Positions 36,926 through 53,526 of a stretch of 64,000 nucleotides of DNA are shown piece by piece (positions within the stretch are counted from its first letter, which is position 1; the number at the start of each line of letters is the position of its first letter). The translations under genes were made by a program, and so were the position numbers. Under the pieces are notes generated by a model. It saw only the letters and a program-made list of their open reading frames with translations. It searched no databases and had not been told where the DNA came from. The stretch spans positions 9,358-73,357 of the forward strand of contig JBBDIE010000158.1 in assembly GCA_040880545.1 (NCBI GenBank), read 5' to 3'. This stretch comes from Bacteroidales bacterium (GTDB taxonomy: Bacteria > Bacteroidota > Bacteroidia > Bacteroidales > GCA-2748055).

Positions 36926-39900
36926 ATGCCGCTGAGCATCTCGAAAGCGTTGAATATCGAAAAGAATGAGCGAAGCGTGGTTTACCTGCTGCTGCTTCAA
37001 TCTGTATTTCTGGGTATTTTTGCCGGTGCACTGGACGTTGGGGCAAACGCACTGTTTCTTGATGCATATAGTGCAGACCTCATGCCCAGGGCGTTCATGA
37101 TTTCAGGAGCCGTGGGTATCCTGTTTACATCTGCTTATACATTCTTTCAGAAGAGAATGCAATTCAGACTATTTACCATCGTTAACCTGTTATTTGTAAT
37201 TATACTTACCGGTGCACTCAGACTGGGGTACAGCTATACAGAAGATCCAAGACTCACGTTTGCTTTGCTTGTTTTCATGGGACCTGTTGTAATTATCAGT
37301 ATGCTGGGGTTTTGGGGTACGGCAGGCAGATATTTTACACTTAGAGACGGGAAGCGGTTGTTTGGAATTATCGATACAGGTTCAGTAGTGGGAATGATAC
37401 TTGCATTTTATGCAGTACCTGTATTGGTACAATTCAATTTCATGGTGCATGATACACTCTTGATTGGGCTGGTAAGTCTTTTAGCGGCGATGGTATTCCA
37501 GGTAATTGTATTACGTAAGCATCAGCTGATAACCCAGGCAGGTTCAACAAGAAAAAGAATCAAAAAGTCTGGTTTCCTTGATATTTTCCGCAAGCGTTAT
37601 ACCTCCATGATGGCTCTGTTCGTGGTACTAAGTGTGATCACAGCATTTTTTATTCATTACTCATTTATGTGGGCAACGGAAGCGAATTACAGCGACAGCA
37701 GGGAACTTACTGGTTTTCTGGGTGCTTTTTTTGGTACGATGATGATCTTTACGGTTATTATTAAAAGCACACTGTACGGATGGCTGATGAAAAATTATGG
37801 ATTAAGGGTCACCCTGTTGATCTCCCCTGCGTTGCTGCTTATTTTAACTATCATTGCTTCTGTAGTAGGAGGGCTCTTTGGATATTCAGCCGAGTCTGCA
37901 AGTTTTACCTTTTTCTTTCTGGTAATTGCCCTTTCAAAACTCTTTAACAGATCCTTAAAGGATGCCATTGAAAGTCCGTCCATGAAGATCCTCTACCAGT
38001 CACTTGATTCGGACGAAAGATTTGATGTACAGGCACGGATTGACGGTGTGGTGAATGAACTTACTGCATTTATGGCAGGATTGGTCATGGCGGGCTTACT
38101 TCTGTTAAGTTTCATTAATGTTATTCATTTTTCATATATTCTTATTTTTCTGTTGGTTATTTGGGTCATCCTTGGTTATTCGCTGTACAGATCATACAGA
38201 AAAACCCTGAATGAAACGCTGGCCTCCGCCAAAACATCTACCAGCAGTAGTCCAGTAATTGATATTTCAGCGCAGGAAAAAGTATCCACCACACCAATGT
38301 ACGGTGAAACGATCCGGCTGGATCCCTATTTTTATCACGCTTCGACGCCGGAAAAACTGGATAAATACCTGGGTGCTTCGGATCCGTTGAGACAGTATTT
38401 TACCTGGCAGTTGATTTCAGGAACCTTATATAGCTGTGATCCAGATTATGTGGATGAGGTGCTGAAAGCAACTAAAGAACCTGTATTGCAAAAGGTTATC
38501 CGTGAATACACTGAACGTTTGCGGTTACCAGGAAAAAATATAGAGAAAGCGTTTCGCTCTGCGGATAAAAATGAGATTATAGCGGCTTTATTACAGACCA
38601 TCAGGGATCATGATGTAAGTCAGGTGCCCCATATCATTACCTTGTTGAGGGACAGGGACCTGCAGCTCAGGGCTACTGCTATTGAAGCGGCAGGAAAATT
38701 AAAAGTGAAAGAGCTGGGAAGCTACCTTGTGGACTACCTGGGTCACCCGGACCTTTATTCGGTAACGTGGTCGGCGTTGGTTAATATGGGAGAGATAATT
38801 CTGGAAAACCTTGAAAATGCATTTCATAAAACCGGAACAGAGACTTTTGTTCGATTAAGGATCGTACGGGCAATGGTTGCCATAGGGGGGGACAAGGCAA
38901 ATGAATATCTTTTCCAGAAGATCAGTTATCACCAGCGGGATATCAGGGAGGCAGCAATCAGGGGGCTATATCTGAATAAGTTTACACCCGATGCGCGTAG
39001 AATTCCGGTTCTTCAGGCAGCCATCTATGAAGCTGTACTGGCAGGTGCCGGCAATATTGCCACTGAAGCTGTCTTACGGGAGAATGATCCTGGGATCGGA
39101 ATTCTTGATACGATCAGGGAGGAGAAGCGAAATACGGATAACCTCCTATTTAATTTGCTTGGAATAACCTATGAAAAGAGTGCGATCGAACACGTACAGC
39201 GAAGTATAGAAGATTCCGAAAACGAAGATACCGGCTTTGCTCTTGAGTTGCTTAACCTGATTGTTGATGAACAGGTATATGCCTACCTGGAACCTTATTT
39301 TGATATTTTGTCTGCTGGAGAGAAGATCCGGCGTTTACAGAGTGAAATGCCCGTGGAAATACTTCCCTATTATACTTTGTTGATCGATCTGTTAAACAGG
39401 GACAGCCTTTATACAGGAAATTATCTGCGTGTGTGTGCTATCGATGCCATAAGGTTGTCGAAAGGTGTGGATGCCGGAAAGTATCTGGCCGCACAGGTAT
39501 TCCATCCGGATCCGGTTATCAGGAAAACGGCGTCCCTGGTACTGGCAGATAAAGATGCTGCTTTGTATGAGAATGTATCCGAACGGCTGGACATGTATTC
39601 AAGGGAAATTGATCATGACATATCAATCACGGGCCTCTTCCATGGACCGGAAATTATCAAGGTTGTTGAAGATCTGAAACAATGGAATTTTTTTCGGACT
39701 CTTGATCGCGAAGTAATATTCCGGTTGGCAAGTCATCTGGTTAGTTCCGACGCAGTAAGTCTGAACAATCCGGATCGGGTCTCCATGATAAAGGCAGGTG
39801 AAGATCGGGAATCTATTTTTTCTGACGGGATCGTGATTAATCTGACAGACTACCCGTCTGTATTGGAGCATATGGCACTCCTTACTTCAGAGTCCGGCTT

Positions 39901-40030
39901 CAGGTTATACCAGGCTGACAGAACCGTATTCAGAGAATTATTGTTTGATATGCCGGGCCTCTTGTATGCCTGCAATAGTATATTTGGTAGCACCAACACG
40001 GCTGAATTGTTAAACCCAAAAGTTTATTGA
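36926..40030 (+). CDS. 12-TM transporter-like (MFS/TLC-like) domain fused to HEAT repeats and a degenerate cNMP-binding-like C-terminus
   Basis: 1034 aa. Twelve hydrophobic helices in a 6+6 layout with a basic central loop (aa 1-440). HEAT-like repeats follow (LLRDRDLQLRATAIEAAGKLK, DIREAAIRGLY, DPVIRKTASLVLA). The C-terminal FFRTLDREVIFRLASHL...GEDRESIF resembles a cNMP-binding fold but lacks the canonical FGE/RTA residues. Confidence 0.6.
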   Translation: MPLSISKALNIEKNERSVVYLLLLQSVFLGIFAGALDVGANALFLDAYSADLMPRAFMISGAVGILFTSAYTFFQKRMQFRLFTIVNLLFVIILTGALRLGYSYTEDPRLTFALLVFMGPVVIISMLGFWGTAGRYFTLRDGKRLFGIIDTGSVVGMILAFYAVPVLVQFNFMVHDTLLIGLVSLLAAMVFQVIVLRKHQLITQAGSTRKRIKKSGFLDIFRKRYTSMMALFVVLSVITAFFIHYSFMWATEANYSDSRELTGFLGAFFGTMMIFTVIIKSTLYGWLMKNYGLRVTLLISPALLLILTIIASVVGGLFGYSAESASFTFFFLVIALSKLFNRSLKDAIESPSMKILYQSLDSDERFDVQARIDGVVNELTAFMAGLVMAGLLLLSFINVIHFSYILIFLLVIWVILGYSLYRSYRKTLNETLASAKTSTSSSPVIDISAQEKVSTTPMYGETIRLDPYFYHASTPEKLDKYLGASDPLRQYFTWQLISGTLYSCDPDYVDEVLKATKEPVLQKVIREYTERLRLPGKNIEKAFRSADKNEIIAALLQTIRDHDVSQVPHIITLLRDRDLQLRATAIEAAGKLKVKELGSYLVDYLGHPDLYSVTWSALVNMGEIILENLENAFHKTGTETFVRLRIVRAMVAIGGDKANEYLFQKISYHQRDIREAAIRGLYLNKFTPDARRIPVLQAAIYEAVLAGAGNIATEAVLRENDPGIGILDTIREEKRNTDNLLFNLLGITYEKSAIEHVQRSIEDSENEDTGFALELLNLIVDEQVYAYLEPYFDILSAGEKIRRLQSEMPVEILPYYTLLIDLLNRDSLYTGNYLRVCAIDAIRLSKGVDAGKYLAAQVFHPDPVIRKTASLVLADKDAALYENVSERLDMYSREIDHDISITGLFHGPEIIKVVEDLKQWNFFRTLDREVIFRLASHLVSSDAVSLNNPDRVSMIKAGEDRESIFSDGIVINLTDYPSVLEHMALLTSESGFRLYQADRTVFRELLFDMPGLLYACNSIFGSTNTAELLNPKVY

Positions 40031-40037
40031 TAACACA

Positions 40038-42059
40038 TTGAGAAAGCGAACTACTATATTTAACCAACTGATACTGAATATTGTCATTCCTGCGATTATT
40101 GCGCTGCTGGCGTTGGGTATGATCAATGTACAACAGACATGGAGCATCCTTGAGCAGTCGGCCGACGAGAAAAGCAGAATCATCAGTGAAGAGATCCGGC
40201 AAATTCATGAAATGCAGGATATGGCCATGCAGATCCTTGAAAAACAACTTGAACCGGAGCTTTTGCATTTTAGCGATCTTTTGGTAAATGAAGTATTTGC
40301 TGACACAAAGAATATTGAATTGGCCGATCTGAATGTTGTACGTGAACGTTTGGGAATGGACAAGGAAAACCAGGATATTTATGTGATAAACAGGAATGGC
40401 ATTGTAGTGAACACTACCTTTGAAGCTGACCTGGGTCTGAACCTGTTTCATTTTGGCCGGGAGCACAGGGAGTTGCTTGAAAAGGTTTGGGAAGAGGGTA
40501 TATTTCACAGTGAAAAGTTTACGGTGGAAAACTCCACCAAAAGACTACGAAAGTTTACATATATCCCCACACTCGACGGAAATTATCTTGTTGAACTGGG
40601 GATCTATTCTGAACAGGCCGATGGTATCATAGATTTTGTTAAAACACGTATGAATACAATGTCGGATGTACAGCGAAATCTGATTTCCGTTGATCTGTTT
40701 ATTGGTAAGGAAAACCCGATCTGTTTAAATGGAGAGGCGATCATTAAGGAAGAATTTTCCGGAGCTTACAGAGAGGTGATGAACAACAAAAAGCGTATTA
40801 CCCTGGATGAGAGAAAAGGAGATCCACCGGTCAGAAGAGAATTTATATTTATGGACCGTCAGAATACCAGTTTATATAAGGAATCAGTCATCCGCATTAT
40901 TTCCGATACCAGTGAAGAACAGGCTGTTTTGAAGAAGGAGTTGTTAAAGTTTCTGCTGGTCTTTTCCATCACAATACTAATTGTAATGACCCTGCTCTAC
41001 AGGAAAACCAAGGTTATTACAGATCCGATCAAGAAGCTGGTTGAGAATGTAAACCGGATAACTGCCGGGCATCTCAATGAACGTGCAGAAGTTATGGGGA
41101 ACAATGAAATCACATCTTTGTCGGAACAATTCAATAATATGATTGCTGAATTGGAAAGTTATTATAACGAACTGGAACAGAAGGTAAAGGACCGTACCGC
41201 TGAAGTGGTGGCTCAGAAGGAGGAGATAGAGGCCCAGCGTGACACCTTGCAGGAACAACGGAATATGCTTGCTGAGATTAATAATTCATTGCAGAAGGCT
41301 TATACGGAAATTGAAGACAGTATTCATTATGCGAGCAGGATCCAAAATGCCATTTTACCGCCGGATGATTATCTGAAAAAGATTATTCCCAATTCTTTTT
41401 TCTTTTATAAACCACGCGATATTGTGAGTGGCGATTTTTACTGGGTGGCATCCAAGGATAATAAAGTGATCGTTTCGGCTGTGGATTGCACAGGGCATGG
41501 AGTGCCGGGAGCCTTTATGTCAATCGTAGGTAGTAATCAGCTGAATTATGCACTGAATATTGAACATGCTACCAGGCCATCTGAGATTATGAGAATACTG
41601 AACGAAGGGGTAACGGCTACGTTGAGACAAACAAAAAATGAGTCGATCCAGGATGGAATGGATATGGCGATGGTTACCATCGACAAGGAGAAAAGAATCC
41701 TTCAATACTCGGGTGCATTCAATCCGCTGATTAAAATAAGGAGCGGGGAGGTTGAAAAGATTAAGGCTGACCGGATTCCAATCGGGGGGCATATTATTGA
41801 AGCAGAGAAGAATTTTACAAATAACGAATTTACCTACCAGGATGGTGATTTGATCTATATGTTTACAGACGGTTATCCGGATCAGTTCGGTGGACCAAAA
41901 GGAGGCAAGTATATGACAGGGAAGTTTATTAAATTGCTCCATACCATATCGGATCATCCATTGGAGGAGCAATATGGATTACTGGAGAAAGAACTTCAAT
42001 CGTGGATGGGAGATGAAGCACAGGTGGATGATATCCTGGTGATTGGTATACAACTTTAG
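40038..42059 (+). CDS. membrane sensor with HAMP domain and PP2C/SpoIIE-type phosphatase domain
   Basis: 673 aa. TTG start 7 nt after the upstream stop, the only start that retains TM1. Layout is TM1, a ~280-aa extracytoplasmic domain, TM2 (FLLVFSITILIVMTLLY), HAMP, coiled coil, then PP2C motifs GDFYWV, DCTGHGVPGAFMS, DGMDMAMV, FTDGYPDQFGG and DDILVIGIQL. Confidence 0.8.
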   Translation: MRKRTTIFNQLILNIVIPAIIALLALGMINVQQTWSILEQSADEKSRIISEEIRQIHEMQDMAMQILEKQLEPELLHFSDLLVNEVFADTKNIELADLNVVRERLGMDKENQDIYVINRNGIVVNTTFEADLGLNLFHFGREHRELLEKVWEEGIFHSEKFTVENSTKRLRKFTYIPTLDGNYLVELGIYSEQADGIIDFVKTRMNTMSDVQRNLISVDLFIGKENPICLNGEAIIKEEFSGAYREVMNNKKRITLDERKGDPPVRREFIFMDRQNTSLYKESVIRIISDTSEEQAVLKKELLKFLLVFSITILIVMTLLYRKTKVITDPIKKLVENVNRITAGHLNERAEVMGNNEITSLSEQFNNMIAELESYYNELEQKVKDRTAEVVAQKEEIEAQRDTLQEQRNMLAEINNSLQKAYTEIEDSIHYASRIQNAILPPDDYLKKIIPNSFFFYKPRDIVSGDFYWVASKDNKVIVSAVDCTGHGVPGAFMSIVGSNQLNYALNIEHATRPSEIMRILNEGVTATLRQTKNESIQDGMDMAMVTIDKEKRILQYSGAFNPLIKIRSGEVEKIKADRIPIGGHIIEAEKNFTNNEFTYQDGDLIYMFTDGYPDQFGGPKGGKYMTGKFIKLLHTISDHPLEEQYGLLEKELQSWMGDEAQVDDILVIGIQL

Positions 42060-46203: not shown

Positions 46204-47391
46204 ATGAGACCCAGAATTTTATATGTGATCCTGTTGATTTTCCCGCTGGTGTTTCATGCCTGCAAGGATGAACTTACCGATCTTCAGAAAGACTCCTTCA
46301 TGAAGTTTTATGGAAGTTACCTGAATGACGCAGGCAGGGATGTAAAGGCACTTCCTTCCGGAGGTTATGCGATTACCGGGAATATTGTACCAGATTCAAT
46401 TGTTAAAATGGCACTGATCATTACAGATGAAGCAGGTAACCAGGTGGAAGGGTCTCCCTGGTTTTATGGTGGTAAATATCAGACCGGCGGTACAACATTA
46501 CTGTTGTTGGAAGACGGCTATCTTCTGGGGGGAACCCTGGTTGATACGGCCAGTGACGGGGAATTGTATACAGATATGTTTCTGGTTAAAACCGATGCCG
46601 CTGGAAATGAAGTCTGGAGCCAACGGTATGGTAATGAAGAAAGTGATCTGTTGAATCATGTGATCCATCGAAAAACCGGGGGCTTTGTTTTGGCCGGAAA
46701 AAAAACCACCAATGAAAACGAGGACCTTTGGATCGTGATGGTGGATGAAAACGGGAATAAACTTTATGATTTCACAGGAAAGGATGTTGATGACGATGAT
46801 GAGGCGAATTTCCTGATCAGTACCGGTAATGGTTATTTGTGTGCCTGTACCTATGATGATGGGTCGATGGAAGGTACCGATATATATATATTGAGCCTGA
46901 ATGAGAATTGCAGCCCGGAAGGGTCCACTGTACTGGGAACTGAAGATGATGATATTGCAAGGACAATTATCAGGTATCAGGATGGATTTGCTGTGATGGG
47001 TTATACGGAAAATACGCTTACCGGGCAGAATGATATTTCCGTCTATACCTTTTCTGTGGAGAATCATAATTTTAAAAACGTACAGAAGATGGCAACGCTG
47101 TCTGAGCTATTGGCGGACCTGACCGGAGAAGATTGTGTTGTAAATTCCAAAGGAGATATTGCCATCATAGGATCGCGTGAAGCAAATGATAACCGGGATA
47201 TGTATCTTGTAATTATTGATAGTTCCGGAAGTATTGTAGGTGAACCAGCTCTATTTGGGGGGTCGGGTAACCAGACCGGGCAGGCCATTGATAAAACTGC
47301 CGACGGAGGCTTAATTTTGACTGGTTCGAATGCGTTTGGTGGTAACACCGTGATCACCCTGGTAAAGACAGATGCCGGTGGAGCTCTATAA
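46204..47391 (+). CDS. lipoprotein with seven beta-propeller-like repeats
   Basis: The ORF-track start at 46120 overlaps the previous gene. ATG 46204 gives the lipoprotein signal MRPRILYVILLIFPLVFHAC, 1 nt after the upstream stop. Seven repeats are of the form GGYAITG...IITDEAGN, DGYLLGG...VKTDAAGNEVW, GGFVLAG...VMVDENGN, and so on. Confidence 0.65.
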   Translation: MRPRILYVILLIFPLVFHACKDELTDLQKDSFMKFYGSYLNDAGRDVKALPSGGYAITGNIVPDSIVKMALIITDEAGNQVEGSPWFYGGKYQTGGTTLLLLEDGYLLGGTLVDTASDGELYTDMFLVKTDAAGNEVWSQRYGNEESDLLNHVIHRKTGGFVLAGKKTTNENEDLWIVMVDENGNKLYDFTGKDVDDDDEANFLISTGNGYLCACTYDDGSMEGTDIYILSLNENCSPEGSTVLGTEDDDIARTIIRYQDGFAVMGYTENTLTGQNDISVYTFSVENHNFKNVQKMATLSELLADLTGEDCVVNSKGDIAIIGSREANDNRDMYLVIIDSSGSIVGEPALFGGSGNQTGQAIDKTADGGLILTGSNAFGGNTVITLVKTDAGGAL

Positions 47392-47412: not shown

Positions 47413-50400
47413 ATGAAAACCAGGATTGTCTTAATATTTTTATTACTCATTGCTTCTGTTGGCTCATTGGTAACAGGGCAATCTGCGAATCTGACAAATC
47501 CGTTCATTGACGAAACGGATGCGCGATCCAATACCAATGTTATCATTCTGCAACTTACCGGGGATACGCTCCTTGCAGATATTGCCTCGGACGACATTGC
47601 AGCAGCAATTTTTCTTGGAGGTATGTCGGGAGGGAGTGCTGCATGGGACAGCCTGGTTGGTTCACTGAATGCAGGAAATATAACACTACTGAACAATAAC
47701 CTGACAGCACATATCAGTGTCCCTTCCAGCACTTCTTATTACATCGTTTCAGATGATACAATTACATTCACTATTCCTTCTGCTTCTCTTAAATCAGGTG
47801 GAGATTCAATTGTTGCCACTCCGGAGATCGTTATTGCGAATGAACTTTCTGCAATTTCCGGGGATGGCGGCGATTTAGCTGTAACAGCAACCGAATCGGA
47901 TATCAGGAGCAGAGACAATTCATATAGCCTGGAACTCGACAATAACCTGTGGAACAGTGATATTACGGGTTCTGCAGACCTTCTGGATACCATTAAGGGA
48001 ATGTTCAGTGGAGGTACAGTTTTTCCATCTTTGGTGGATGCTTTAACCCTGGCTGATCTGGAAATCAGCGTAGATGGAAAAATTCTTGGAATTTATTTTC
48101 GGCAGAATTTACAATATTTCATAGAAACAGATGAAGTGATCTCCGTGGAGGTTTCAAATTCACTGTTGTCATTCGAAGAATTCTTTACAGACTCTGTTCA
48201 GGAATTTACAATTACCAACGAAATTCCTTACATTTCAATTACGGCCAAAAGCCTTACTGAAGCTGAAATCAGATCCGGGTCAACAGACTTTGATATTACC
48301 CTGAACGGGGACCAATGGAGTGGCTCGTTGGGAAGTAATTTCGCTGAAGATATTGTTTCCGGAGGCAACTGGGATACCCAGATCACTCCGTTTCTGACAT
48401 TTAACAGGATCAGCGACACGGTTGTAACCGTTACAATACCTGAGACTTCCGGTTTTGATATAATTAACGAAGAAACTGTACAGGTAACTGTGTCCGCAAC
48501 AGCTCTTCAGCATACCTCAGCAGGTAGTTTTACTGCCTCTGAGGAGATGACAATTACCCCAGAGCCGGTAATCATAATTGGTTCAGCGACCTTTAACGGA
48601 GTTAACGAAGGTGATATCAGGGTAAATAGTTATACAATTACACTGACACTTTATGAGGACACCTGGCATGGCGATATTGGTGGTGATAATTCAAGGAACA
48701 GGGATCTGATCAATAGTCTCACCTTTACACCAACAGAGTCGGTTGCAGCGGGAGTGATGAAGGCAGAAATTCTGCAAGGGGGTAACGACGGCGCCGACAA
48801 TACTACAGTATCTGGAAATGTTGTGACCATTACGGTACCCGAGGTTGCAGCTTTTAATATTCAAGAAGATGTACAGGTAAGTTTTGCGGTACCATCATCT
48901 GCACTTGTCAATTCATCAACTACTGTAAATACAGGTGATTTTGCTTTCATCAGTCACATTGTACCCACCATGGAAATTTCATCAGATCCTGATCCATTAT
49001 ACGAATCGGATCTGAATAAATCAATTATAGGAGTGAAACTTTTCGAGGAAGAGTGGTTTGACAATAATCTGGATAAATCAAATTTCAACCTGATTGTAAC
49101 CCCATCAGCTGCCGGAATTTCTATCAAAAAAATTAGCAGGTTTGGTTCTGATTCATGCGAAATTGAATTGCAGTATGATGGTATTATGAGTACGAACCAC
49201 ACGATCGATCTGAGCATTAATGCTGTTGAGCTGAAGGGTTCAGATCCAATCACAGGGGCCATATCGGGGATACCCGTTATTGCACTAATTGAACCGGTTA
49301 TCCTCGATGTGGTAATTCCAGATGTACCCATGGGAATAGGAGATATTGTCACAGCGCAAATTACGGTTGATGATGACAATGATTTCGTATTTGATTCCAT
49401 TGTGGGGACCATAGCCGGAAGGGTGATGATAGAAGGGTCCCTGGTTCGGATTTCAGAGACGCTGTACACTGCTGATTTTGAGATAATAGAAGACTCTGAG
49501 CCGCAATATGCCGGGGGAGATGATATTGTTGTTGATAGTTTGCAGATGTTTAACGATACAGTGCCTGGAAATTATTATTCAGGTGTAATATCACAGAGCA
49601 ACGACCTGATCGATTCAAAACGACCTGTAATTGGGTTGGTAAGTTTCAATAACGGAAAATACAGAATTGGACAGTCATTGGTTGCAACCATACAATCGGC
49701 CGAATCGAATCTTACTTTTGATGAAAATCTGACCTCAATCAATACAATTCCACTTACCGATCCCGGAGTGGTAGCGTATAATGCAGGAAGTGGGATTTAC
49801 CAGTTAACCTATACCGTAGCAGAGGGAGATCCGGATGTTGTATCACCAGCAGCTGTACCGGTGAATATAGTGTTACGGGATGGAGTATTGAACAGCAGTC
49901 TTGTTGCAACATCCTATTCGGGTGCTGATCCGGAAATTGACGCCAACAGTCCGGTGATAACAACTGTGGATGAGACAAGCACAGGTACGCAGGTACCGGG
50001 GAATAGCATTGTACATACCATTACTGCAACAGAAAACGGTTTGTTATTGGGGAGCGGTACCACCGTGAATAATGTGGGGGTTGGATCGGGCCGGATATCT
50101 TTAGCTGTTGCTGGTGAGAACACCTATCAACTGGTCTACGAAGTTAGTGCCGATGATAGCAAGGTAAGTTCTGGTAATCTCATGGTAACACTATCTCTGG
50201 CCGATTCTGCTGGTAATGAGACTGTTTTTGGTGGAACTATTACAAACAAGGATCTTTCAATCGTTACTTCATCGCCGACTGCTGATATGTATGGAGGAGG
50301 AACGATTTGTGCAGAAGATTCAGCTGAAATTTTAATAGCTATTTCAGGAGGAACACCTCCTTATCATGTTACGTTGTATGAAGATGGGGCATTATTCAAT

Positions 50401-53400
50401 AGCTATGTTGATGTGGGAACGCAGTTGACTGTGAAAGTTGCTCCGCTGGATGACACCCGCTATGTCATACATAGAATCAGTGATGCAATGAACGTCATTA
50501 CATTTGGTGCTGATTCTGTTGATATTCAGGTGAACCCTCTTCCAACTGCTGCGTTTTCTCCAACTATCAGAACTATATTCTCTGTGGATGGTGGTGGAGC
50601 TTACCAACTTCCGGCAACGCCCATAGGCGGAGTTTTCAGTGGTCCCGGAGTGGTCCCGGCGGAAGGACGTTTTTATCCGGGTATTGCAGGTGTATCGGAT
50701 TCACTTGGACATGAAATTGTATATACCTATAAGGAAAGCACGACTGGATGTATTGGCACTGACACCGTTATTTTCACAGTTTTGAATACCAGTGGAGAAT
50801 TAACCATCGACTTCCCGGATGTCAGCAGGGAAGGGATTATCTGTTATGACGATGGTATGTTCAGAATTACTGGTAACAATGTGGCTGATCCGCCGGTCAT
50901 AGGCAGTTTTAATTTATACAGGGTAGACAGGGCCGGTGATGTGGCTGTACCGGAAGCCATTATAGATGAGGATCCTGATGATAACATGGCCTTTATTGAT
51001 CCATCAAAACTGGTAAATGAGTCGGTCGGCTACAGGGTCGAATATGAATTTCTGTGGGAAGGCTCGGTTGTGGTTATTGAGAGACCCCTGATATTTGATT
51101 ATGTCAATGAGATTGTTTTCAGTAAAACGATCCCCGTTACTGTATGTAAAGATGAATCAGCGGTTGCACTGGAGGCATCACCTAATATAGATGGCACCTT
51201 CAACTTTTCTGGTCCGGGAATTCTGGGTAATGAAGTGGTTGGATTCACCTTTGAACCGGATTCCGGTGATATTGGATTAAATACATTCATCTATCAATAC
51301 ACATCTGATATGGGGTGCACCAGGTCGGCCGGGTTGGAAATAACTAATTTTGATGTACCCGTTGTCGTATTCACACCGCAGGATGTGTGCATACCCCCGG
51401 TTGATGCACAAACAGGTGAGGGAGGAGGTCCGATTACCTTTACCAATGAAACTACCCAGGCCGGACTTGTGTCCAGGTGGATGTGGGAATTCGGTGATAT
51501 CAATAGCGGATCAGGCAATTTCGATACCATCCCCGGTAACGGATCCGCAATTGATGTTGTTCATGATTATACCGCACCCGGAAACAGGAGTGTTTTGCTG
51601 AAAATCGAAACATACGAAGGTTGCGACGCATCACTAAGCAGATTAATTGAATTTACCGACAAGCCCGATGCCGACTTTAAGGCAGTAAGTGATTGCTGGA
51701 TTCCCGGAGAGCCAATAGAATTCAGGAATTATTCTGTATCTCAAAAAAAGTGGGAGACCTTCACCTGGACCATCAGAAACGATTTGATGACATGGGATAC
51801 GACCGTTATAACAACGGTAGTGGATTCCTTAGCCAGGATATACTTTAATAACAGCGATGACACATATGAGATTGCATTGGAGGTGAAAAATATTGCGGGA
51901 GAAAATCTGAACTGTTATGACACCAAAGTCGACAAAGACTTTATTTTAAAACCTACCCACCGGTTTATCGAGAATGAAGGAGCGAGATTTATGACCTTCG
52001 ATGATAGCGGGGAGAAATGGACCACAGATTCTACAACCAATTTTTCAAGCTGGGAGTGGGGTCTGCCCAATTTCGAAGGCTTTGTTGCCCCACCCAATGA
52101 CAATGCATGGTTTACTTTGAGGGACAAGGGTGCTAGTGGTGAGCGTTCATGGATTCAGAGTGAATGTTTTGATTTCAGAAACCTGGAAAAACCCATGATC
52201 AGAATGGATGTAATGCGGAGTTTTGACAGGAACAGGGGAGGAGCCGTATTGCAATATTCCCTGAATAACGGAACAAACTGGCAGACCCTGGGAAATATCG
52301 GGGAGGGCATCAACTGGTACAATTCGTTTGAGATAATCAACAGACCCGGGGGAGGCAGAAGTGGCTCGGGTAGTTCCATAGGTTGGTCCGGAGAAAATAT
52401 ATTCAATCCTGATACTTCCTGGATTACAGTAGCTCATGATTTGGATGACCTGCTGGATGAGCGCCTGGTAATTTTTGGAATATTTTATGCTACTGATGGA
52501 GCCTCTGCATTAGATCCACCACCCCAGGGTTTTGCAGTGGACAATATTTATATTGGAGAAAGGACGAAAAGAGGAATTGTGGAGCATTTTACAAACGCCT
52601 ACGACCAGGCATCCTTTGACGCCGATCAGAAAATCAATAACTTCGTTACAGCAAATAATCTGGATGTGACCAGTGTGCAGTACCATATGCATTATCCCGG
52701 TGATATATCTGATCCAATGAATGAAAATAATCCTGCACCTGCATCGGCACGCTCATTTTACTATGGAGTGAATCAGGTGCCCTATGCCTTGTTGGACGGA
52801 GGAATCAATGCTGAATATAAGTATAATTTTGTACCTGCCGGACCGACGATCACACAGTTAAAAAGGCTTACCCTGGAAAAACCACTTTTCCAGCTTGACC
52901 TGAAGTTTCAACTACACAGTAATCATTTGTCGACCACCATTACTACAGCAGCACTTGCAGATATTGAGCACAGCGATATTGTGTTGAACACTGCAGTTGT
53001 TGAGAAATCGGTTTTTGCTTCCGGTGTGAATGGTGATACGGAGTATCGAAATGTGGTACTTGATATGCTTCCTTCATCTGGCGGACATATGTTTTCAAGA
53101 TCATGGACAACAGGTGATACACAGGAAGAACAGTTTACCTGGACCTACAAGCATGTTGGCGACTATGATGAGTTGATGCTGGTAGCCTTCCTGCAGGATC
53201 GGGAGACTGACAAAATTCTACAGGTAGTAACTGGTGAAGAATCGGTTTACCCGATGAATATTGTTCATAACAAGGCCAGTGAATTACGCCTTTATCCCAA
53301 TCCGGCACGATCGGTATTGTTCATCGAAAATGCAAATGCTGCGGAATCTGCTGGTTCAGTTGTGATCAGCGATATGACGGGCAGGATTGTAACATTGAAA

Positions 53401-53526
53401 GAGATTGCCGCCGGCGAACAGAAAATAGAGATCAATACCATGGAACTTTCAGAAGGTACATATATTGTCAACTGGAAAGTAAATGGAATAGTTCTGGGAA
53501 GAAGCAGTTTTATAAAACTAAGGTAA
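47413..53526 (+). CDS. 2037-aa secreted multidomain surface protein, T9SS cargo
   Basis: Signal peptide. Five N-terminal ~110-aa repeat modules. PKD-like domain (WMWEFGD, ~51400-51660). C-terminal T9SS type-A sorting domain (LRLYPNPA...GTYIVNWKVNG). Confidence 0.85.
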   Translation: MKTRIVLIFLLLIASVGSLVTGQSANLTNPFIDETDARSNTNVIILQLTGDTLLADIASDDIAAAIFLGGMSGGSAAWDSLVGSLNAGNITLLNNNLTAHISVPSSTSYYIVSDDTITFTIPSASLKSGGDSIVATPEIVIANELSAISGDGGDLAVTATESDIRSRDNSYSLELDNNLWNSDITGSADLLDTIKGMFSGGTVFPSLVDALTLADLEISVDGKILGIYFRQNLQYFIETDEVISVEVSNSLLSFEEFFTDSVQEFTITNEIPYISITAKSLTEAEIRSGSTDFDITLNGDQWSGSLGSNFAEDIVSGGNWDTQITPFLTFNRISDTVVTVTIPETSGFDIINEETVQVTVSATALQHTSAGSFTASEEMTITPEPVIIIGSATFNGVNEGDIRVNSYTITLTLYEDTWHGDIGGDNSRNRDLINSLTFTPTESVAAGVMKAEILQGGNDGADNTTVSGNVVTITVPEVAAFNIQEDVQVSFAVPSSALVNSSTTVNTGDFAFISHIVPTMEISSDPDPLYESDLNKSIIGVKLFEEEWFDNNLDKSNFNLIVTPSAAGISIKKISRFGSDSCEIELQYDGIMSTNHTIDLSINAVELKGSDPITGAISGIPVIALIEPVILDVVIPDVPMGIGDIVTAQITVDDDNDFVFDSIVGTIAGRVMIEGSLVRISETLYTADFEIIEDSEPQYAGGDDIVVDSLQMFNDTVPGNYYSGVISQSNDLIDSKRPVIGLVSFNNGKYRIGQSLVATIQSAESNLTFDENLTSINTIPLTDPGVVAYNAGSGIYQLTYTVAEGDPDVVSPAAVPVNIVLRDGVLNSSLVATSYSGADPEIDANSPVITTVDETSTGTQVPGNSIVHTITATENGLLLGSGTTVNNVGVGSGRISLAVAGENTYQLVYEVSADDSKVSSGNLMVTLSLADSAGNETVFGGTITNKDLSIVTSSPTADMYGGGTICAEDSAEILIAISGGTPPYHVTLYEDGALFNSYVDVGTQLTVKVAPLDDTRYVIHRISDAMNVITFGADSVDIQVNPLPTAAFSPTIRTIFSVDGGGAYQLPATPIGGVFSGPGVVPAEGRFYPGIAGVSDSLGHEIVYTYKESTTGCIGTDTVIFTVLNTSGELTIDFPDVSREGIICYDDGMFRITGNNVADPPVIGSFNLYRVDRAGDVAVPEAIIDEDPDDNMAFIDPSKLVNESVGYRVEYEFLWEGSVVVIERPLIFDYVNEIVFSKTIPVTVCKDESAVALEASPNIDGTFNFSGPGILGNEVVGFTFEPDSGDIGLNTFIYQYTSDMGCTRSAGLEITNFDVPVVVFTPQDVCIPPVDAQTGEGGGPITFTNETTQAGLVSRWMWEFGDINSGSGNFDTIPGNGSAIDVVHDYTAPGNRSVLLKIETYEGCDASLSRLIEFTDKPDADFKAVSDCWIPGEPIEFRNYSVSQKKWETFTWTIRNDLMTWDTTVITTVVDSLARIYFNNSDDTYEIALEVKNIAGENLNCYDTKVDKDFILKPTHRFIENEGARFMTFDDSGEKWTTDSTTNFSSWEWGLPNFEGFVAPPNDNAWFTLRDKGASGERSWIQSECFDFRNLEKPMIRMDVMRSFDRNRGGAVLQYSLNNGTNWQTLGNIGEGINWYNSFEIINRPGGGRSGSGSSIGWSGENIFNPDTSWITVAHDLDDLLDERLVIFGIFYATDGASALDPPPQGFAVDNIYIGERTKRGIVEHFTNAYDQASFDADQKINNFVTANNLDVTSVQYHMHYPGDISDPMNENNPAPASARSFYYGVNQVPYALLDGGINAEYKYNFVPAGPTITQLKRLTLEKPLFQLDLKFQLHSNHLSTTITTAALADIEHSDIVLNTAVVEKSVFASGVNGDTEYRNVVLDMLPSSGGHMFSRSWTTGDTQEEQFTWTYKHVGDYDELMLVAFLQDRETDKILQVVTGEESVYPMNIVHNKASELRLYPNPARSVLFIENANAAESAGSVVISDMTGRIVTLKEIAAGEQKIEINTMELSEGTYIVNWKVNGIVLGRSSFIKLR
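53281..53523 (+). other. T9SS C-terminal sorting domain (type A) of the 2037-aa protein
   Basis: ELRLYPNPARSVLFIEN...ISDMTGRIV...LSEGTYIVNWKVNGIVLGRSSFIKLR matches the Por secretion-system CTD pattern. Confidence 0.85.

What the first reader, a model, noticed from the sequence alone, without database searches (positions are those of the whole stretch)
36926..53526. Six-gene operon linking inner-membrane signalling proteins, a transmembrane STAND NTPase, OM components and a giant T9SS cargo
Seen in the sequence: six ORFs lie on one strand with junctions of 7 nt (40030/40038), 22 nt (42059/42082), a 4-nt ATGA overlap (45135-45138), 1 nt (46202/46204) and 21 nt (47391/47413). The block is bounded by a divergent yhhQ and a convergent fprA. 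In order, the products are: a 12-TM transporter-like/HEAT/cNMP-like protein; a HAMP-PP2C phosphatase; a P-loop STAND NTPase with TM, coiled coil and WD40; an OM beta-barrel; a 7-bladed lipoprotein; and a 2037-aa surface protein with a T9SS sorting domain. No component is housekeeping. I know of no described system with this combination. The set has predicted members in the cytoplasm, inner membrane, periplasm, outer membrane and cell surface. My inference is an envelope-spanning sensory or regulatory machine that controls or uses the surface protein, or a conflict/recognition system built on a STAND switch. No kinase, STAS protein, sigma/anti-sigma pair or nuclease/toxin effector is present.
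Basis: partly seen in the sequence, partly recalled or inferred. Interest (0 to 1): 0.78.

Follow-up and report, generated by a model that had tools for sequence, protein, structure and literature searches.

The report
Conserved envelope-spanning STAND switch gene cluster
This is a real, widely inherited and so far undescribed Bacteroidota gene cluster, built around a membrane-anchored NLR-like ATP switch whose sensor sits on a rigid rod in the periplasm next to outer-membrane proteins and a giant secreted surface protein, and it appears to be an immune-type sensor re-purposed for cell-envelope signalling.

Summary
The cluster is not a chance arrangement. In the 80 closest of at least 593 species genomes that carry the STAND gene, the order g1-(g2)-(gX)-g3-g4-g5-giant T9SS cargo recurs (g1 53/54, g4 72/73, g5 57/58, giant ORF 40/45). 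It recurs across Bacteroidales, Cytophagales and Flavobacteriales, with changing flanks and co-evolving components. New findings: (i) the STAND protein is N-in/C-out, with a continuous Ala-heptad coiled-coil stalk whose length varies only in whole heptads (104-132 aa, about 17 nm) and a WD40 head carrying a co-varying cysteine pair; (ii) the PP2C phosphatase is optional, as is a TIR/DUF4062 gene (gX) that is missing from this window; (iii) in other bacteria the same stalked STAND occurs only as a two-gene pair with a catalytically intact TIR in conflict-type neighbourhoods (6/6), whereas all 42 cluster copies of gX have lost the catalytic motif; (iv) in Bacteroidota the constant partner is g1 (an NTT-like carrier with HEAT repeats and a degenerate CNB domain), also found beside a contractile injection system or a TonB receptor. 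Best reading: a domesticated trans-envelope STAND signalling module. Its function is untested.

The parts
36676..36925 (.). 250-nt divergent intergenic region between yhhQ and g1; presumed promoter region of the cluster
   Evidence: This is the only sizeable non-coding gap next to the cluster. No Rfam family matches it. No exact Bacteroidota-type TAnnTTTG motif is found there. The promoter role is inferred, not shown.
36926..40030 (+). g1: 1034-aa inner-membrane protein with a 12-TM NTT/TLC-type carrier (about residues 1-425), HEAT repeats (about 520-700) and a C-terminal CNB-fold domain with a degenerate phosphate-binding cassette
   Evidence: Pfam TLC 34.4 bits (cutoff 21) and HEAT_2. The ortholog profile matches ADP/ATP carrier 9j3n (E=3e-15), alphaRep/HEAT, and the PKG CNB domain (E=1e-12). 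Pfam cNMP_binding is significant in 6/27 orthologs. The PBC motif is absent in 27/27. g1 is present upstream of g3 in 53/54 assessable loci, and also next to g3 in Persicobacter and Runella.
40038..42059 (+). g2: 673-aa SiaA-like sensor phosphatase with TM1, a periplasmic domain of about 260 aa, TM2, HAMP and a PP2C/SpoIIE domain; an optional member of the cluster
   Evidence: Pfam HAMP and SpoIIE. NCBIfam SiaA 240 bits, below the cutoff of 700, with only HAMP+PP2C matched. PDB 6k4e (SiaA PP2C) E=5e-61. TM segments at 5-34 and 296-324. Present in 32 of 54 assessable loci.
42082..45138 (+). g3: 1018-aa membrane-anchored nSTAND1 NTPase, the central switch
   Evidence: nSTAND1 E=9.6e-94 and WD40. 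There are at least 593 relatives in species genomes. Walker A is intact in 78/79 and Walker B (DQFEE) in 79/79 orthologs.
42121..43329 (+). g3 cytoplasmic nSTAND1 NTPase domain (residues 14-416); there is no N-terminal effector domain
   Evidence: Pfam match 14-416. Mean identity to orthologs is 53%.
43525..43596 (+). g3 single transmembrane helix (about residues 482-505), preceded by a basic KRRLRxTR stretch
   Evidence: Kyte-Doolittle maximum 2.25. A TM is present in all 79 orthologs. Net charge is +5.7 on the N-flank and +0.2 on the C-flank.
43597..43944 (+). g3 periplasmic coiled-coil stalk (about residues 506-621): 16 heptads with Ala at position a
   Evidence: Position a is Ala in 93%, d is Gln/Asn in 48%, and g is Leu/Ile/Glu. 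Pro and Gly are almost absent. Stalk length in 79 orthologs is 118 (52), 125 (22), 132 (3), 111 (1) or 104 (1), and all indels are exactly 7 residues.
43945..45135 (+). g3 periplasmic head: helical preface plus WD40 propeller, with a C-terminal motif holding a co-varying cysteine pair (C982, C1008)
   Evidence: WD40 hits over 727-1000. The Cys pair is both present in 66, both absent in 12 and mismatched in 1 of 79 orthologs.
45135..46202 (+). g4: 355-aa outer-membrane protein with a signal peptide, a periplasmic helical domain (about 22-107, invariant C23 and C49) and a small beta-barrel
   Evidence: OMP_b-brl_2. AF2 pLDDT 87. Foldseek best matches are OmpA/Ail/OmpW/Pla (E=2.5e-7). Invariant residues are listed. 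Present in 72/73 assessable loci.
46204..47391 (+). g5: 395-aa lipoprotein forming a 7-bladed beta-propeller
   Evidence: A lipobox Cys is present in 67/67 orthologs. AF2 pLDDT 91. CylK propeller match with TM-score 0.76, E=4e-17 and by sequence profile E=5e-29. Present in 57/58 assessable loci.
47413..50409 (+). g6 N-terminal variable half (about residues 1-1000): signal peptide and divergent repeats of about 115-125 aa; the presumed distal tip of the surface protein
   Evidence: Internal repeats. This half is shared with only 4-16 of 36 giant orthologous ORFs.
50410..53526 (+). g6 conserved C-terminal half: Cys-containing Ig-like and PKD domains, a lectin/jelly-roll-like region, an Omp28-like domain, and the type-A T9SS sorting tail (residues 1960-2024, nt 53290-53484)
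   Evidence: This half is shared with 21-28 of 36 giant ORFs. Por_Secre_tail and PKD are found in 23/23 complete orthologs and Omp28 in 13/23. TIGR04183 scores above its cutoff. A giant ORF follows g5 directly in 40/45 assessable loci.

Best explanation
The cluster encodes a trans-envelope signalling module centred on a membrane-anchored STAND (NLR-like) NTPase.

Shown by sequence analysis:
- g3 has its NTPase in the cytoplasm and one TM helix.
- It then has a continuous coiled-coil rod of about 118 residues (about 17 nm).
- It ends in a WD40 head that most likely carries a disulfide, which places the head in the periplasm.
- g4 (an OM barrel with a periplasmic helical domain), g5 (a propeller lipoprotein) and a giant T9SS-secreted, PKD/Ig-rich surface protein are inherited with it as one unit.
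- So is g1, an inner-membrane NTT-like carrier with HEAT repeats and a degenerate CNB domain.

Inferred mechanism: the WD40 head reads the state of the g4/g5/cargo complex at the outer membrane, for example occupancy, load or loss of the surface protein. As in other STAND proteins, this releases the NTPase to exchange nucleotide and oligomerise. The cytoplasmic output goes through g1. Where present, it also goes through the SiaA-like HAMP-PP2C phosphatase g2, probably acting on a STAS-type partner switch encoded elsewhere. So the signal flows outside-in.

Inferred history: the module descends from a two-gene TIR+stalked-STAND conflict pair. In Bacteroidota the TIR effector became catalytically dead and was then lost (as in this window), and the sensor was wired to a resident envelope apparatus. 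The result is a domesticated regulator of cell-surface behaviour and not a mobile defence system.
For: Unit status:
- The same gene order is found in the 80 best loci: g1 53/54, g4 72/73, g5 57/58, giant ORF 40/45.
- Flanks change (fprA is shared by only 6 loci) and no other gene family is associated.
- Component distance matrices correlate at r=0.76-0.86, with 0/500 Mantel permutations reaching the observed value.
- The architectures follow g3 clades.

Topology and geometry:
- A TM helix is present in 79/79 orthologs, with positive-inside charge of +5.7 against +0.2.
- The stalk shows Ala at every 7th residue, and its length differs only by whole heptads.
- The cysteine pair in the head co-varies 66/12/1.
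- g4 has a signal peptide and an invariant Cys pair, and g5 has an invariant lipobox.

Switch competence: Walker A is intact in 78/79 and Walker B in 79/79.

Direction of signalling:
- Sister loci pair the same stalked STAND with a cytoplasmic TIR that keeps DxFISY and SxWCxxE (6/6).
- In characterised STAND proteins (established knowledge: Apaf-1, MalT, Avs) the C-terminal repeat domain is the sensor.

Domestication:
- 0/42 cluster gX copies keep WxxxE, and gX is absent in 19 of 54 loci, including the window.
- No component matches PADLOC.
- The neighbours are core metabolism genes, there are no tRNAs, and GC content is even.

Output:
- g1 is the only cytoplasmic-membrane partner that is always present, including in Persicobacter (beside a contractile injection system) and Runella (beside a TonB receptor).
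- In Runella two STAS proteins and an RsbW-like kinase sit next to g3, matching the presence of a PP2C phosphatase elsewhere.
Against: - Nothing here is experimental. No contact between the WD40 head and g4, g5 or g6 has been shown, and no multimer modelling was possible.
- Co-transcription is inferred only from spacing and synteny. Promoter motifs occur at chance level.
- The stalk also occurs in the stand-alone TIR pairs, so it is not a special adaptation for reaching this outer-membrane complex.
- The direction of signalling rests on analogy.
- g1 has no known function, and its CNB domain lacks the cNMP-binding cassette.
- No substrate for the PP2C phosphatase is encoded in the window.
- Only the 80 closest of at least 593 loci were inspected, so synteny may break down further out. 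L081 and L082 are already exceptions.
- The HMMs used for synteny were built from only four sequences per gene.
Confidence: 0.5

Rival explanations
1. The cluster is still a conflict or immune system: an NLR-like guard of the cell envelope. The giant surface protein (or, in relatives, a TonB receptor or a contractile injection system) is a guarded target or decoy for phages, predators or contact-dependent weapons. The periplasmic WD40 head detects interference with it. The activated STAND triggers an effector that has displaced the dead TIR, most plausibly g1, an NTT-type carrier that could drain ATP or NAD from the cell (abortive infection).
For: - nSTAND1 was defined in conflict systems (PMC8195603).
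- Sister loci are TIR+STAND pairs next to GT4-conflict, SLATT/LSDAT and CHAT-TPR genes.
- TIR remnants are still present in most cluster lineages.
- The distal half of g6 is the fastest-evolving part of the cluster.
- The alternative partners (TonB-dependent receptor, contractile injection system) are classic phage receptors or weapons.
- Effector displacement is common in such systems (established knowledge).
Against: - No component matches PADLOC.
- No recognised effector is present in the window.
- The TIR catalytic motif is lost in 42/42 cluster copies.
- Position in the chromosome is stable and lies among housekeeping genes, and the components are co-inherited vertically across orders.
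- The WD40 sensor is not hypervariable; its identity to orthologs is 22-62% and follows the phylogeny.
- In the loci seen, there is one copy with one architecture per clade.
Confidence: 0.25
2. Signalling runs inside-out, or the module couples energy mechanically (LapD-like or TolA-like). A cytoplasmic cue (nucleotide state of the NTPase, ligand on the HEAT/CNB part of g1, phosphorylation state set by g2) changes the oligomeric state or register of the coiled-coil rod. The WD40 head then grips or releases the g4/g5 complex, and so retains, exposes or sheds the giant adhesin.
For: - The rigid, register-preserving stalk (indels only in heptads) is what a mechanical transmission element would need.
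- The cytoplasmic parts are rich in input-type domains (CNB-like, HEAT, HAMP-PP2C).
- LapD/LapG/LapA sets a precedent for inside-out control of a giant adhesin (established knowledge).
- Bacteroidota lack recognisable Tol-Pal loci (PMC12204202).
Against: - Heptad-only indels are expected for any continuous coiled coil, whether or not it signals.
- The same stalk serves TIR-armed pairs, where the output is clearly cytoplasmic.
- No protease, LapG-like or other releasing enzyme is encoded.
- The CNB domain lacks the cNMP-binding cassette.
Confidence: 0.13
3. g4 and g5 are simply cargo-specific secretion or anchoring accessories of the giant T9SS protein, as SprF is for SprB. g1-g3 form an unrelated signalling pair that happens to be linked to them in these lineages.
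For: - T9SS adhesin genes often travel with cognate outer-membrane accessories (established knowledge of sprCDBF).
- g1+g3 occur without g4, g5 and g6 in Persicobacter and Runella.
- g4 is a generic small barrel with no specific structural match.
Against: - The linkage g3-g4-g5 holds in 72/73 and 57/58 loci across several orders, with g3-g4 overlaps or very short gaps.
- g3 co-evolves with g4 and g5 at r=0.84 and 0.79.
- g4 is not a PorP/SprF family member, and the cargo has a type-A tail, not type-B.
Confidence: 0.09
4. The six genes are neighbours by chance or by simple vertical synteny, with no shared function.
For: The mirror-tree correlation is also expected for any set of vertically inherited genes.
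Against: - The block keeps its internal order and tight spacing while its flanks change.
- Gene gain and loss inside it is confined to two specific positions.
- The 4-nt overlap and 1-nt gap imply translational coupling.
Confidence: 0.03

Closest known systems
nSTAND1-type STAND NTPases of bacterial conflict systems (Kaur, Burroughs, Iyer & Aravind 2021, PMC8195603); more broadly NLR-like/Avs-type STAND sensors
   Same: g3 has the same NTPase family (Pfam nSTAND1, E=1e-93), a C-terminal repeat sensor (WD40) and intact Walker motifs. Its sister loci carry a TIR effector gene and conflict-type neighbours.
   Different: - g3 has no fused effector.
- It is anchored in the inner membrane, with the sensor on a 104-132-residue coiled-coil stalk outside the cytoplasm.
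- It is embedded in a vertically inherited 5-7-gene cluster with outer-membrane and T9SS components.
- The associated TIR is degenerate or absent.
SiaABCD pathway of Pseudomonas aeruginosa (SiaA HAMP-PP2C phosphatase, SiaB kinase, SiaC, SiaD cyclase; PMC7647112)
   Same: g2 has the SiaA layout (TM, periplasmic domain, TM, HAMP, PP2C). Its PP2C domain matches the SiaA structure 6k4e at E=5e-61. SiaA controls aggregation and surface behaviour.
   Different: - No SiaB, SiaC or SiaD homologue is present in the cluster.
- The periplasmic domain is unrelated to SiaA's by sequence.
- g2 scores 240 bits against the NCBIfam SiaA cutoff of 700.
- g2 is dispensable in 22 of 54 loci.
LapD-LapG-LapA control of a giant adhesin in Pseudomonas fluorescens
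   Same: An inner-membrane protein with cytoplasmic nucleotide-type domains and a periplasmic output is encoded with a giant repeat-rich surface adhesin and outer-membrane parts.
   Different: - No GGDEF/EAL receptor, LapG protease or type I secretion system is present.
- The transducer is a STAND NTPase.
- The cargo uses T9SS.
- The likely direction of signalling is the opposite (outside-in).
TolA/TonB periplasmic force transducers and Tol-Pal (PMC12204202)
   Same: Both have an N-terminal inner-membrane anchor, a long extended periplasmic segment and a C-terminal domain that meets outer-membrane proteins or lipoproteins. A beta-propeller (TolB) and an OM lipoprotein also feature in Tol-Pal.
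   Different: - No TolQR/ExbBD motor is present.
- The cytoplasmic part is a P-loop STAND NTPase.
- There is no TolA domain III or TonB C-terminal domain.
- The stalk is a canonical heptad coiled coil.
sprCDBF-type operons (giant T9SS gliding adhesin SprB with its outer-membrane partner SprF)
   Same: A giant T9SS-secreted, Ig/PKD-rich surface protein is encoded next to a small outer-membrane beta-barrel and other accessory genes. The L001 ortholog of g6 has SprB repeats.
   Different: - g4 is an OMP_b-brl_2 protein, not a PorP/SprF family member.
- The cargo has a type-A tail, not type-B.
- No STAND, carrier or phosphatase is known in spr operons.
NTT/TLC nucleotide carriers (ATP/ADP and NAD transporters of plastids and intracellular bacteria; PDB 9j3n)
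   Same: The membrane domain of g1 belongs to this family (Pfam TLC above its threshold; profile E=3e-15 to solved carriers).
   Different: - g1 is found in free-living Bacteroidota.
- It carries a cytoplasmic extension of about 600 residues, made of HEAT repeats and a degenerate CNB domain.
- It is always paired with a STAND NTPase.
- Its substrate is unknown.

Membership tests
STAND NTPase, nSTAND1 clade | Match to the nSTAND1 NTPase model above threshold | tested here: met
   PF20703 315.5 bits against a cutoff of 27.1, residues 14-416
STAND NTPase, nSTAND1 clade | Intact Walker A (GxxGxGKS/T) and Walker B (hhhhD) motifs | tested here: met
   GASGSGKSS and LLIIDQFEE are present in the window. 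Walker A is intact in 78/79 and Walker B in 79/79 orthologs.
STAND NTPase, nSTAND1 clade | C-terminal superstructure-forming repeat (sensor) domain | tested here: met
   WD40 repeats over about 727-1000. Sister proteins carry TPR repeats instead.
STAND NTPase, nSTAND1 clade | Ligand-dependent nucleotide exchange and oligomerisation | not testable with these tools
   Needs biochemistry.
Known anti-phage defence systems (PADLOC models, Avs/NLR-like) | Sequence match of at least one component to a defence-system model | tested here: not met
   Only a 23-residue P-loop hit (mad3, E=4e-4). Nothing was found for g1, g2, g4, g5, g6 or gX.
Known anti-phage defence systems (PADLOC models, Avs/NLR-like) | A recognisable effector (nuclease, TIR NADase, protease, pore) | tested here: not met
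   There is none in the window. The TIR of gX in related loci lacks the catalytic WxxxE motif in 42/42 copies.
Known anti-phage defence systems (PADLOC models, Avs/NLR-like) | Patchy, island-associated, horizontally mobile distribution | tested here: not met
   Neighbours are core-genome genes, position is stable and the architecture follows clades. There are no close phage hits. Three hits lie on large Cytophagales secondary replicons.
Known anti-phage defence systems (PADLOC models, Avs/NLR-like) | Protection against phage | not testable with these tools
   Needs infection assays.
SiaABCD signalling pathway | SiaA-type HAMP-PP2C phosphatase | tested here: inconclusive
   The PP2C domain is close to 6k4e (E=5e-61), but the whole protein scores 240 bits against the equivalog cutoff of 700 and the periplasmic part is unmatched.
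SiaABCD signalling pathway | Adjacent SiaB kinase, SiaC substrate and SiaD diguanylate cyclase | tested here: not met
   No such genes are in the window or in the flanks of the 80 loci.
T9SS type-A cargo | C-terminal type-A sorting domain | tested here: met
   TIGR04183 34 bits (cutoff 23) and PF18962 43.7 bits (cutoff 27) at residues 1960-2025. Present in 23/23 complete orthologs.
T9SS type-A cargo | N-terminal Sec signal peptide | tested here: met
   MKTRIVLIFLLLIASVGSLVTGQ has a hydrophobic core with KD 2.27. This is by inspection; no dedicated predictor was available.
T9SS type-A cargo | T9SS-dependent secretion and tail cleavage | not testable with these tools
   Needs a T9SS mutant and proteomics.
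sprB/sprF-type adhesin-accessory pair | Outer-membrane partner of the PorP/SprF family, and a cargo with a type-B tail | tested here: not met
   g4 matches only OMP_b-brl_2, and its Foldseek matches are generic small barrels. The cargo tail is type A.
Tol-Pal / TonB force-transduction systems | TolQR/ExbBD-type proton motor and a TolA/TonB C-terminal domain | tested here: not met
   No such Pfam hits were found in any of the six proteins or the neighbours.
LapD-LapG-LapA adhesin control | A degenerate GGDEF-EAL c-di-GMP receptor and a LapG-type periplasmic protease | tested here: not met
   Both are absent from the cluster.
NTT/TLC nucleotide carrier family (g1 membrane domain) | Match to the TLC model above threshold and to solved carriers | tested here: met
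   PF03219 34.4 bits (cutoff 21). Ortholog profile against 9j3n E=3e-15. Many orthologs score better with MFS_1 (15/27).
NTT/TLC nucleotide carrier family (g1 membrane domain) | Nucleotide transport activity | not testable with these tools
   Needs liposome or uptake assays.
Cyclic-nucleotide receptors (CNB domain) | CNB fold with a phosphate-binding cassette (FGE...R[ST]A) | tested here: not met
   The fold is recognised at family level (PKG CNB E=1e-12; Pfam hit in 6/27), but the cassette is absent in 27/27 orthologs, including the window.

The most novel reading that the evidence does not exclude
This is the first trans-envelope NLR. It is a STAND/NLR-type switch whose repeat sensor stands on a coiled-coil rod of about 17 nm in the periplasm and monitors a resident outer-membrane or surface apparatus (here a barrel-lipoprotein pair holding a giant T9SS protein; in relatives a contractile injection system or a TonB receptor). 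It evolved from a TIR-armed immune pair, and in it an NTT-type nucleotide carrier (g1) has replaced the TIR NADase as the cytoplasmic output. That would link envelope surveillance to nucleotide export or nucleotide signalling.
Probability: 0.3. Interest if true: 0.88.

Novelty: new variant of a known kind. Interest (0 to 1): 0.72.

Why it matters
STAND/NLR proteins are known as cytoplasmic sensors in bacteria, plants and animals. A large family whose sensor lies outside the cytoplasm on a fixed-register stalk would extend the NLR principle to surveillance or control of the cell envelope. It would be a bacterial counterpart, in logic, of a Toll-like receptor joined to an NLR switch.

The comparison made here also captures an evolutionary transition. 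The TIR is intact in two-gene pairs, catalytically dead inside the cluster, and finally lost. This is a concrete and testable case of an immune module being domesticated.

For Bacteroidota biology, the cluster assigns a context to five or six 'hypothetical' genes found in hundreds of environmental species. It also points to an unknown layer of regulation of giant T9SS surface proteins (adhesion, aggregation, gliding, biofilm). Finally, it gives a first functional handle on the NTT-HEAT-CNB proteins, a widespread architecture with no known role.

Cultured carriers exist (Fulvivirga kasyanovii, F. ulvae, Perlabentimonas gracilis, Persicobacter psychrovividus, Runella rosea), so the question is open to experiment.

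Tried and rejected
- An exact look-up of the window's g3 in the contig index found nothing. Context therefore had to come from homologues.
- The sigma-70 promoter and terminator scan and a Bacteroidota TAnnTTTG scan were uninformative. Counts were at chance and nothing fell in the gaps or upstream of g1, so no statement on transcription units is possible.
- Tandem-repeat search in g6 found only a trivial 22-nt repeat. The protein repeats are too diverged to show at DNA level.
- Rfam and tRNA scans of the whole window were empty. There is no riboswitch in the yhhQ/g1 region and no integration hallmark.
- Profile search of g4 against PDB sequences gave only a non-significant BamG hit (E=0.068). 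Foldseek gave generic OmpA/Ail/OmpW/Pla-type barrels, with BamG only at E about 1e-4. A specific relation to BAM or T9SS parts was rejected.
- A lipoprotein surface-export signal in g5 was examined. Residues after the Cys are D/E/K-rich but inconsistent, so whether g5 faces the periplasm or the surface is left open.
- The periplasmic domain of g2 has no Pfam or PDB sequence match. A Cache-like fold is only my guess.
- A first regex for the stalk end matched only 32/79 sequences and gave spurious lengths. It was replaced by alignment-based counting.
- Literature searches (nSTAND1; STAND+WD40+T9SS; TM+periplasmic STAND; NTT+HEAT+CNB; SiaA) found no description of the cluster. One search failed on syntax.
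- Considered and rejected: a SiaABCD homologue (no SiaBCD genes), a Tol-Pal analogue by homology (no motor or TolA/TonB domains), a LapD system (no GGDEF/EAL or LapG), an spr-type operon (g4 is not PorP/SprF and the tail is type A), and a mobile defence island (core-genome context, no PADLOC hits).

Full report
**1. The observation**

The window holds six + strand ORFs at exactly the stated coordinates. They are g1 36926-40030, g2 40038-42059 (TTG start), g3 42082-45138, g4 45135-46202, g5 46204-47391 and g6 47413-53526. The junctions are 7 nt, 22 nt, a 4-nt ATGA overlap, 1 nt and 21 nt. Ortholog N-termini support the TTG start of g2 and the 46204 start of g5.

The block is bounded by a divergent Vut_1/queuosine-precursor transporter gene and a convergent flavodiiron gene whose stop lies 5 nt from the g6 stop. 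No terminator-like hairpin falls in any gap. GC content is even across the region. The wider neighbourhood is core metabolism: leucine/HMG-CoA catabolism, phosphatidylserine decarboxylase, CDP-diglyceride synthase, FtsH and biotin ligase. The window has no tRNA and no Rfam match. It comes from a Bacteroidales MAG whose proteins are annotated only as 'outer membrane beta-barrel protein' and 'hypothetical protein'.

**2. The parts**

- **g1.** This is a 12-TM carrier of the NTT/TLC type. Pfam TLC scores above its threshold, and the ortholog profile matches solved ADP/ATP carriers at E=3e-15. It is followed by HEAT repeats and a C-terminal domain with the cyclic-nucleotide-binding fold (E=1e-12 to the PKG CNB domain; Pfam cNMP_binding is significant in 6 of 27 orthologs). 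The canonical phosphate-binding cassette is missing in all 27 orthologs, so 'cNMP-like' is the right wording.
- **g2.** It has the layout TM, about 260 periplasmic residues, TM, HAMP, PP2C. Its PP2C domain matches the SiaA phosphatase structure 6k4e at E=5e-61. The whole protein is well below the SiaA equivalog cutoff, and its periplasmic domain matches nothing.
- **g3.** It is an nSTAND1 NTPase (E=1e-93) with no N-terminal effector, one TM helix, a coiled coil and a WD40 propeller.
- **g4.** It has a signal peptide, a helical domain of about 85 residues with two invariant cysteines, and a small beta-barrel. AF2 pLDDT is 87, and the Foldseek matches are generic OmpA/Ail/OmpW/Pla barrels.
- **g5.** It is a lipoprotein (Cys conserved in 67/67 orthologs) forming a 7-bladed propeller. 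AF2 pLDDT is 91, and the TM-score to the CylK propeller is 0.76.
- **g6.** It has a signal peptide, divergent N-terminal repeats, PKD/Ig-like domains, an Omp28-like domain and a type-A T9SS tail.

**3. Is it a unit?**

Full-length g3 homologues are abundant. Three look-ups at 45-61% identity already showed the same gene order, with different flanks in one of them.

The best 80 span Bacteroidales, Marinilabiliales, Cytophagales and Flavobacteriales, and include cultured Fulvivirga and Perlabentimonas. Profile HMMs of each gene gave these tallies, counting only loci whose contig reaches far enough:

| Gene | Present / assessable loci |
|---|---|
| g1 upstream | 53/54 |
| g4 downstream | 72/73 |
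| g5 downstream | 57/58 |
| giant ORF directly after g5 | 40/45 |

All 23 complete giant ORFs carry the T9SS tail and PKD domains. Many MAG contigs break just after g5, as expected for a repetitive giant gene.

The downstream fprA is shared by only 6 loci. The recurrent flanking genes are housekeeping ones (yhhQ, aroK, topoisomerase subunits), and no kinase or STAS family is associated. Pairwise distance matrices of g1, g3, g4 and g5 correlate at r=0.76-0.86, with 0 of 500 Mantel permutations reaching that value, and g2-g3 correlate at 0.86. This shows co-inheritance without shuffling, although vertical descent alone also produces such correlation.

Two positions in the cluster are variable: g2, and an extra gene, gX, between g2 and g3. 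Among 54 assessable loci the four architectures number 18 (gX only), 17 (g2+gX), 15 (g2 only, the window's type) and 4 (neither). They map onto g3 clades. The 7-gene form is found in the most diverse lineages and is probably ancestral. gX has no trace in the window.

**4. The STAND protein is built to cross the envelope**

All 79 full-length orthologs have the single TM helix. The 15 residues before it carry a net charge of +5.7 and the 15 after it +0.2, so the NTPase is cytoplasmic and everything C-terminal is outside. Walker A and B are intact in 78 and 79 of 79.

The segment after the TM is only 27% identical between orthologs, yet it has Ala at every seventh position (93%), Gln/Asn at d and Leu/Ile/Glu at g, with almost no Pro or Gly. 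Its length is 118 residues in 52 orthologs, 125 in 22, 132 in 3, 111 in 1 and 104 in 1, and every indel is exactly seven residues. This describes one continuous coiled coil. At 0.15 nm per residue it is about 16-20 nm long. I recall that this is comparable to the reach of GldM/PorM across the Bacteroidota periplasm; that is my knowledge and was not tested here.

The WD40 head ends in a conserved motif with two cysteines. They are both present in 66 orthologs, both absent in 12, and mismatched in one. That is the pattern of a disulfide, which fits an oxidising compartment.

Contact with g4, g5 or g6 is still only inferred.

**5. Where the module comes from**

An exhaustive search with g3 residues 1-520 found 10,164 representative clusters at E<=1e-30. 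Of the 147 closest, 143 have the TM helix and at least 101 have the Ala-heptad stalk. Some have TPR instead of WD40 heads.

Six of these relatives were looked up. All six sit in higher-GC genomes (55-59%), one of them apparently cyanobacterial. In all six the STAND gene is preceded, usually with overlap, by a gX-type gene of about 500 codons. No g1, g2, g4, g5 or g6 is present, and the neighbours include CHAT-TPR, GT4-conflict and SLATT/LSDAT genes.

gX consists of an N-terminal TIR and two further TIR/DUF4062-like domains. In the six stand-alone pairs the TIR keeps both the D[IL]FISY strand and the SxWCxxE motif, which contains the catalytic glutamate of TIR NADases (established knowledge). 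In 42 cluster-embedded gX copies none keeps WxxxE, and only 11 keep the first motif.

The simplest history is as follows. A TIR plus stalked-STAND conflict pair was recruited in Bacteroidota. Its TIR decayed. It was then lost in some clades, including the one represented here. This is inference from comparative data, with a small sample (6) on the stand-alone side.

**6. The constant partner and the variable apparatus**

Within Bacteroidota, g1 is always with g3. Two annotated replicons of cultured Cytophagales show this in other settings.

- In Persicobacter psychrovividus pPP2, a g1+g3 pair without g4-g6 lies in the middle of a contractile-injection-system locus.
- On a Runella rosea plasmid, g3 is followed by a TonB-dependent receptor, a GNAT gene and g1. 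It is preceded by two STAS/anti-sigma-antagonist genes and an RsbW-like kinase.

Both keep the TM and the stalk. These are single examples. They suggest that g1+g3 is a portable inner-membrane pair that can be coupled to different outer-membrane or extracellular machines. They also suggest that a partner-switch (STAS/kinase/PP2C) is its usual downstream language, which would explain an orphan PP2C phosphatase in the window.

**7. Mechanism**

I commit to outside-in signalling. The periplasmic WD40 head reads the g4/g5/cargo complex. The NTPase switches and oligomerises. The output runs through g1 and, where present, g2. My reasons are:
- the sensor role of C-terminal repeats in all characterised STAND proteins (established knowledge);
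- the cytoplasmic, catalytically competent TIR of the ancestral pairs;
- the universal presence of g1.

I rate this at about 0.5. The main rival (0.25) is that the cluster is still an immune guard of the envelope, with g1 as a replacement effector. Ancestry, the fast-evolving distal half of g6 and the nature of the alternative partners favour that reading. Against it are the empty PADLOC scan, the decay of the TIR, the core-genome position and the clade-wise vertical pattern. Inside-out (LapD-like or TolA-like) control (0.13), a mere cargo-accessory role for g4/g5 (0.09) and chance adjacency (0.03) follow.

**8. Comparison with what is known**

By membership, g3 is an nSTAND1 STAND NTPase, g6 is a type-A T9SS cargo, the g1 membrane domain is an NTT/TLC carrier, and the g2 catalytic domain is a SiaA-type PP2C. 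The cluster is not a member of any of the following:
- SiaABCD (no SiaB, SiaC or SiaD);
- Tol-Pal/TonB (no motor and no TolA/TonB domains);
- LapD-LapG (no GGDEF/EAL and no protease);
- spr-type operons (g4 is not PorP/SprF and the tail is type A);
- any PADLOC defence system.

nSTAND1 has been described only as a cytoplasmic conflict NTPase with fused effectors (PMC8195603). A periplasmic placement of a STAND-linked sensor has been predicted in passing for one DGR target (PMC10907252). I found no paper on this cluster, on stalked membrane-anchored nSTAND1 proteins, or on the NTT-HEAT-CNB architecture. The library is incomplete, so prior description elsewhere cannot be excluded.

**9. Verdict**

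The six genes are a derived form of a conserved 5-7-gene Bacteroidota module.

I classify it as a new variant of a known kind: STAND/NLR signalling in a new trans-envelope architecture and gene context.

Interest is 0.72. A specialist in NLR evolution or in the Bacteroidota envelope and T9SS would be surprised by an extracytoplasmic, stalk-mounted STAND sensor wired to outer-membrane parts, and by the visible domestication series. All functional claims are still computational inference.

**Limits**
- Only the 80 closest loci were examined.
- The synteny HMMs came from four sequences each.
- ORF calling was simple.
- No multimer modelling was available.
- There are no transcript data.

Noticed in passing
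window 35905-36675 (- strand) and 23-24 related loci: The yhhQ/Vut_1 queuosine-precursor transporter gene lies just upstream of g1 in 23-24 of the related loci. It is mostly divergent, but lies on the same strand in 5 loci. This is far more often than any other flanking gene. It could be plain vertical synteny or a functional link between a 7-deazaguanine transporter and a nucleotide-carrier protein.
   Followed up: partly
window 53526/53532: The stop codons of g6 (+) and the flavodiiron gene (-) are only 5 nt apart. That leaves no room for a terminator between the convergent genes, so transcripts must overlap or terminate inside the opposite gene.
   Followed up: no
window 27870-35754 (- strand): A compact catabolic operon: HMG-CoA reductase-like, an unassigned 332-aa ORF, acyl-CoA dehydrogenase, biotin carboxylase/BCCP, enoyl-CoA hydratase and carboxyltransferase. 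It is a leucine/isovalerate-type pathway. The 332-aa ORF at 29196-30194 has no Pfam hit.
   Followed up: no
L086-L089, L092, L093: A sister family of membrane-anchored nSTAND1 proteins has the same Ala-heptad stalk but TPR or longer WD40 heads. In all six loci it is preceded by a three-domain TIR/DUF4062 protein of about 500 aa with intact catalytic motifs, and it sits next to CHAT-TPR, GT4-conflict or SLATT/LSDAT genes. This looks like an undescribed two-gene extracytoplasmic-sensing NLR-like system in its own right.
   Followed up: partly
L090 (Persicobacter psychrovividus pPP2, NZ_AP025294.1 about 275306-281505): A g1+g3 pair without g4-g6 is inserted between the sheath/tube/baseplate genes and the DUF4255/tape-measure/LysM genes of a contractile injection system. 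This suggests possible regulation or triggering of a CIS by the STAND pair.
   Followed up: partly
L091 (Runella rosea plasmid NZ_CP030852.1 about 59603-72376): g3 and g1 flank a TonB-dependent receptor and a GNAT gene. They lie directly downstream of two STAS/anti-sigma-antagonist genes and an RsbW-like kinase, and upstream of a large sensor histidine kinase. This hints at the partner-switch output that the window's orphan PP2C phosphatase would need.
   Followed up: partly
L059 4096-4995 and L064 4115-5023: Two Cyclobacteriaceae-type loci carry a second, shorter gX-like ORF upstream of g1, giving the order gX-g1-gX-g3.
   Followed up: no
L031 and L037: Contigs carrying typical Bacteroidota-type clusters are filed under a Thiohalospira (Gammaproteobacteria) MAG and a Chloroflexota MAG. 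These are probably binning errors rather than transfer, because the g3 sequences nest inside Bacteroidales clades.
   Followed up: partly
L081 (Sporocytophaga MAG) and L082 (Raineyaceae MAG): These are exceptions to the synteny. L081 has a split g4, no detectable g5 and the shortest stalk (104 aa). L082 has g3 alone, with a 132-aa stalk and none of the partners within the available flanks. They could be decaying or relocated copies.
   Followed up: no
many MAG loci, e.g. L023, L025, L033, L034, L041, L061, L068: Assemblies very often end 0.1-2 kb after g5, inside the giant cargo gene. The cargo is therefore systematically under-represented or truncated in metagenome bins, which biases any census of these surface proteins.
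   Followed up: no
window 39930-40508 (-), 41520-41972 (-), 46498-47067 (-), 48954-49469 (-): Several antisense ORFs of 150-190 aa overlap the cluster genes. They have no support from conservation and are most likely spurious.
   Followed up: no
public annotation of g3 orthologs: Some RefSeq/GenBank records call the orthologs 'High-affinity carbon uptake protein Hat/HatR'. This is a legacy label that propagated from a cyanobacterial WD40 protein, and it is misleading.
   Followed up: no
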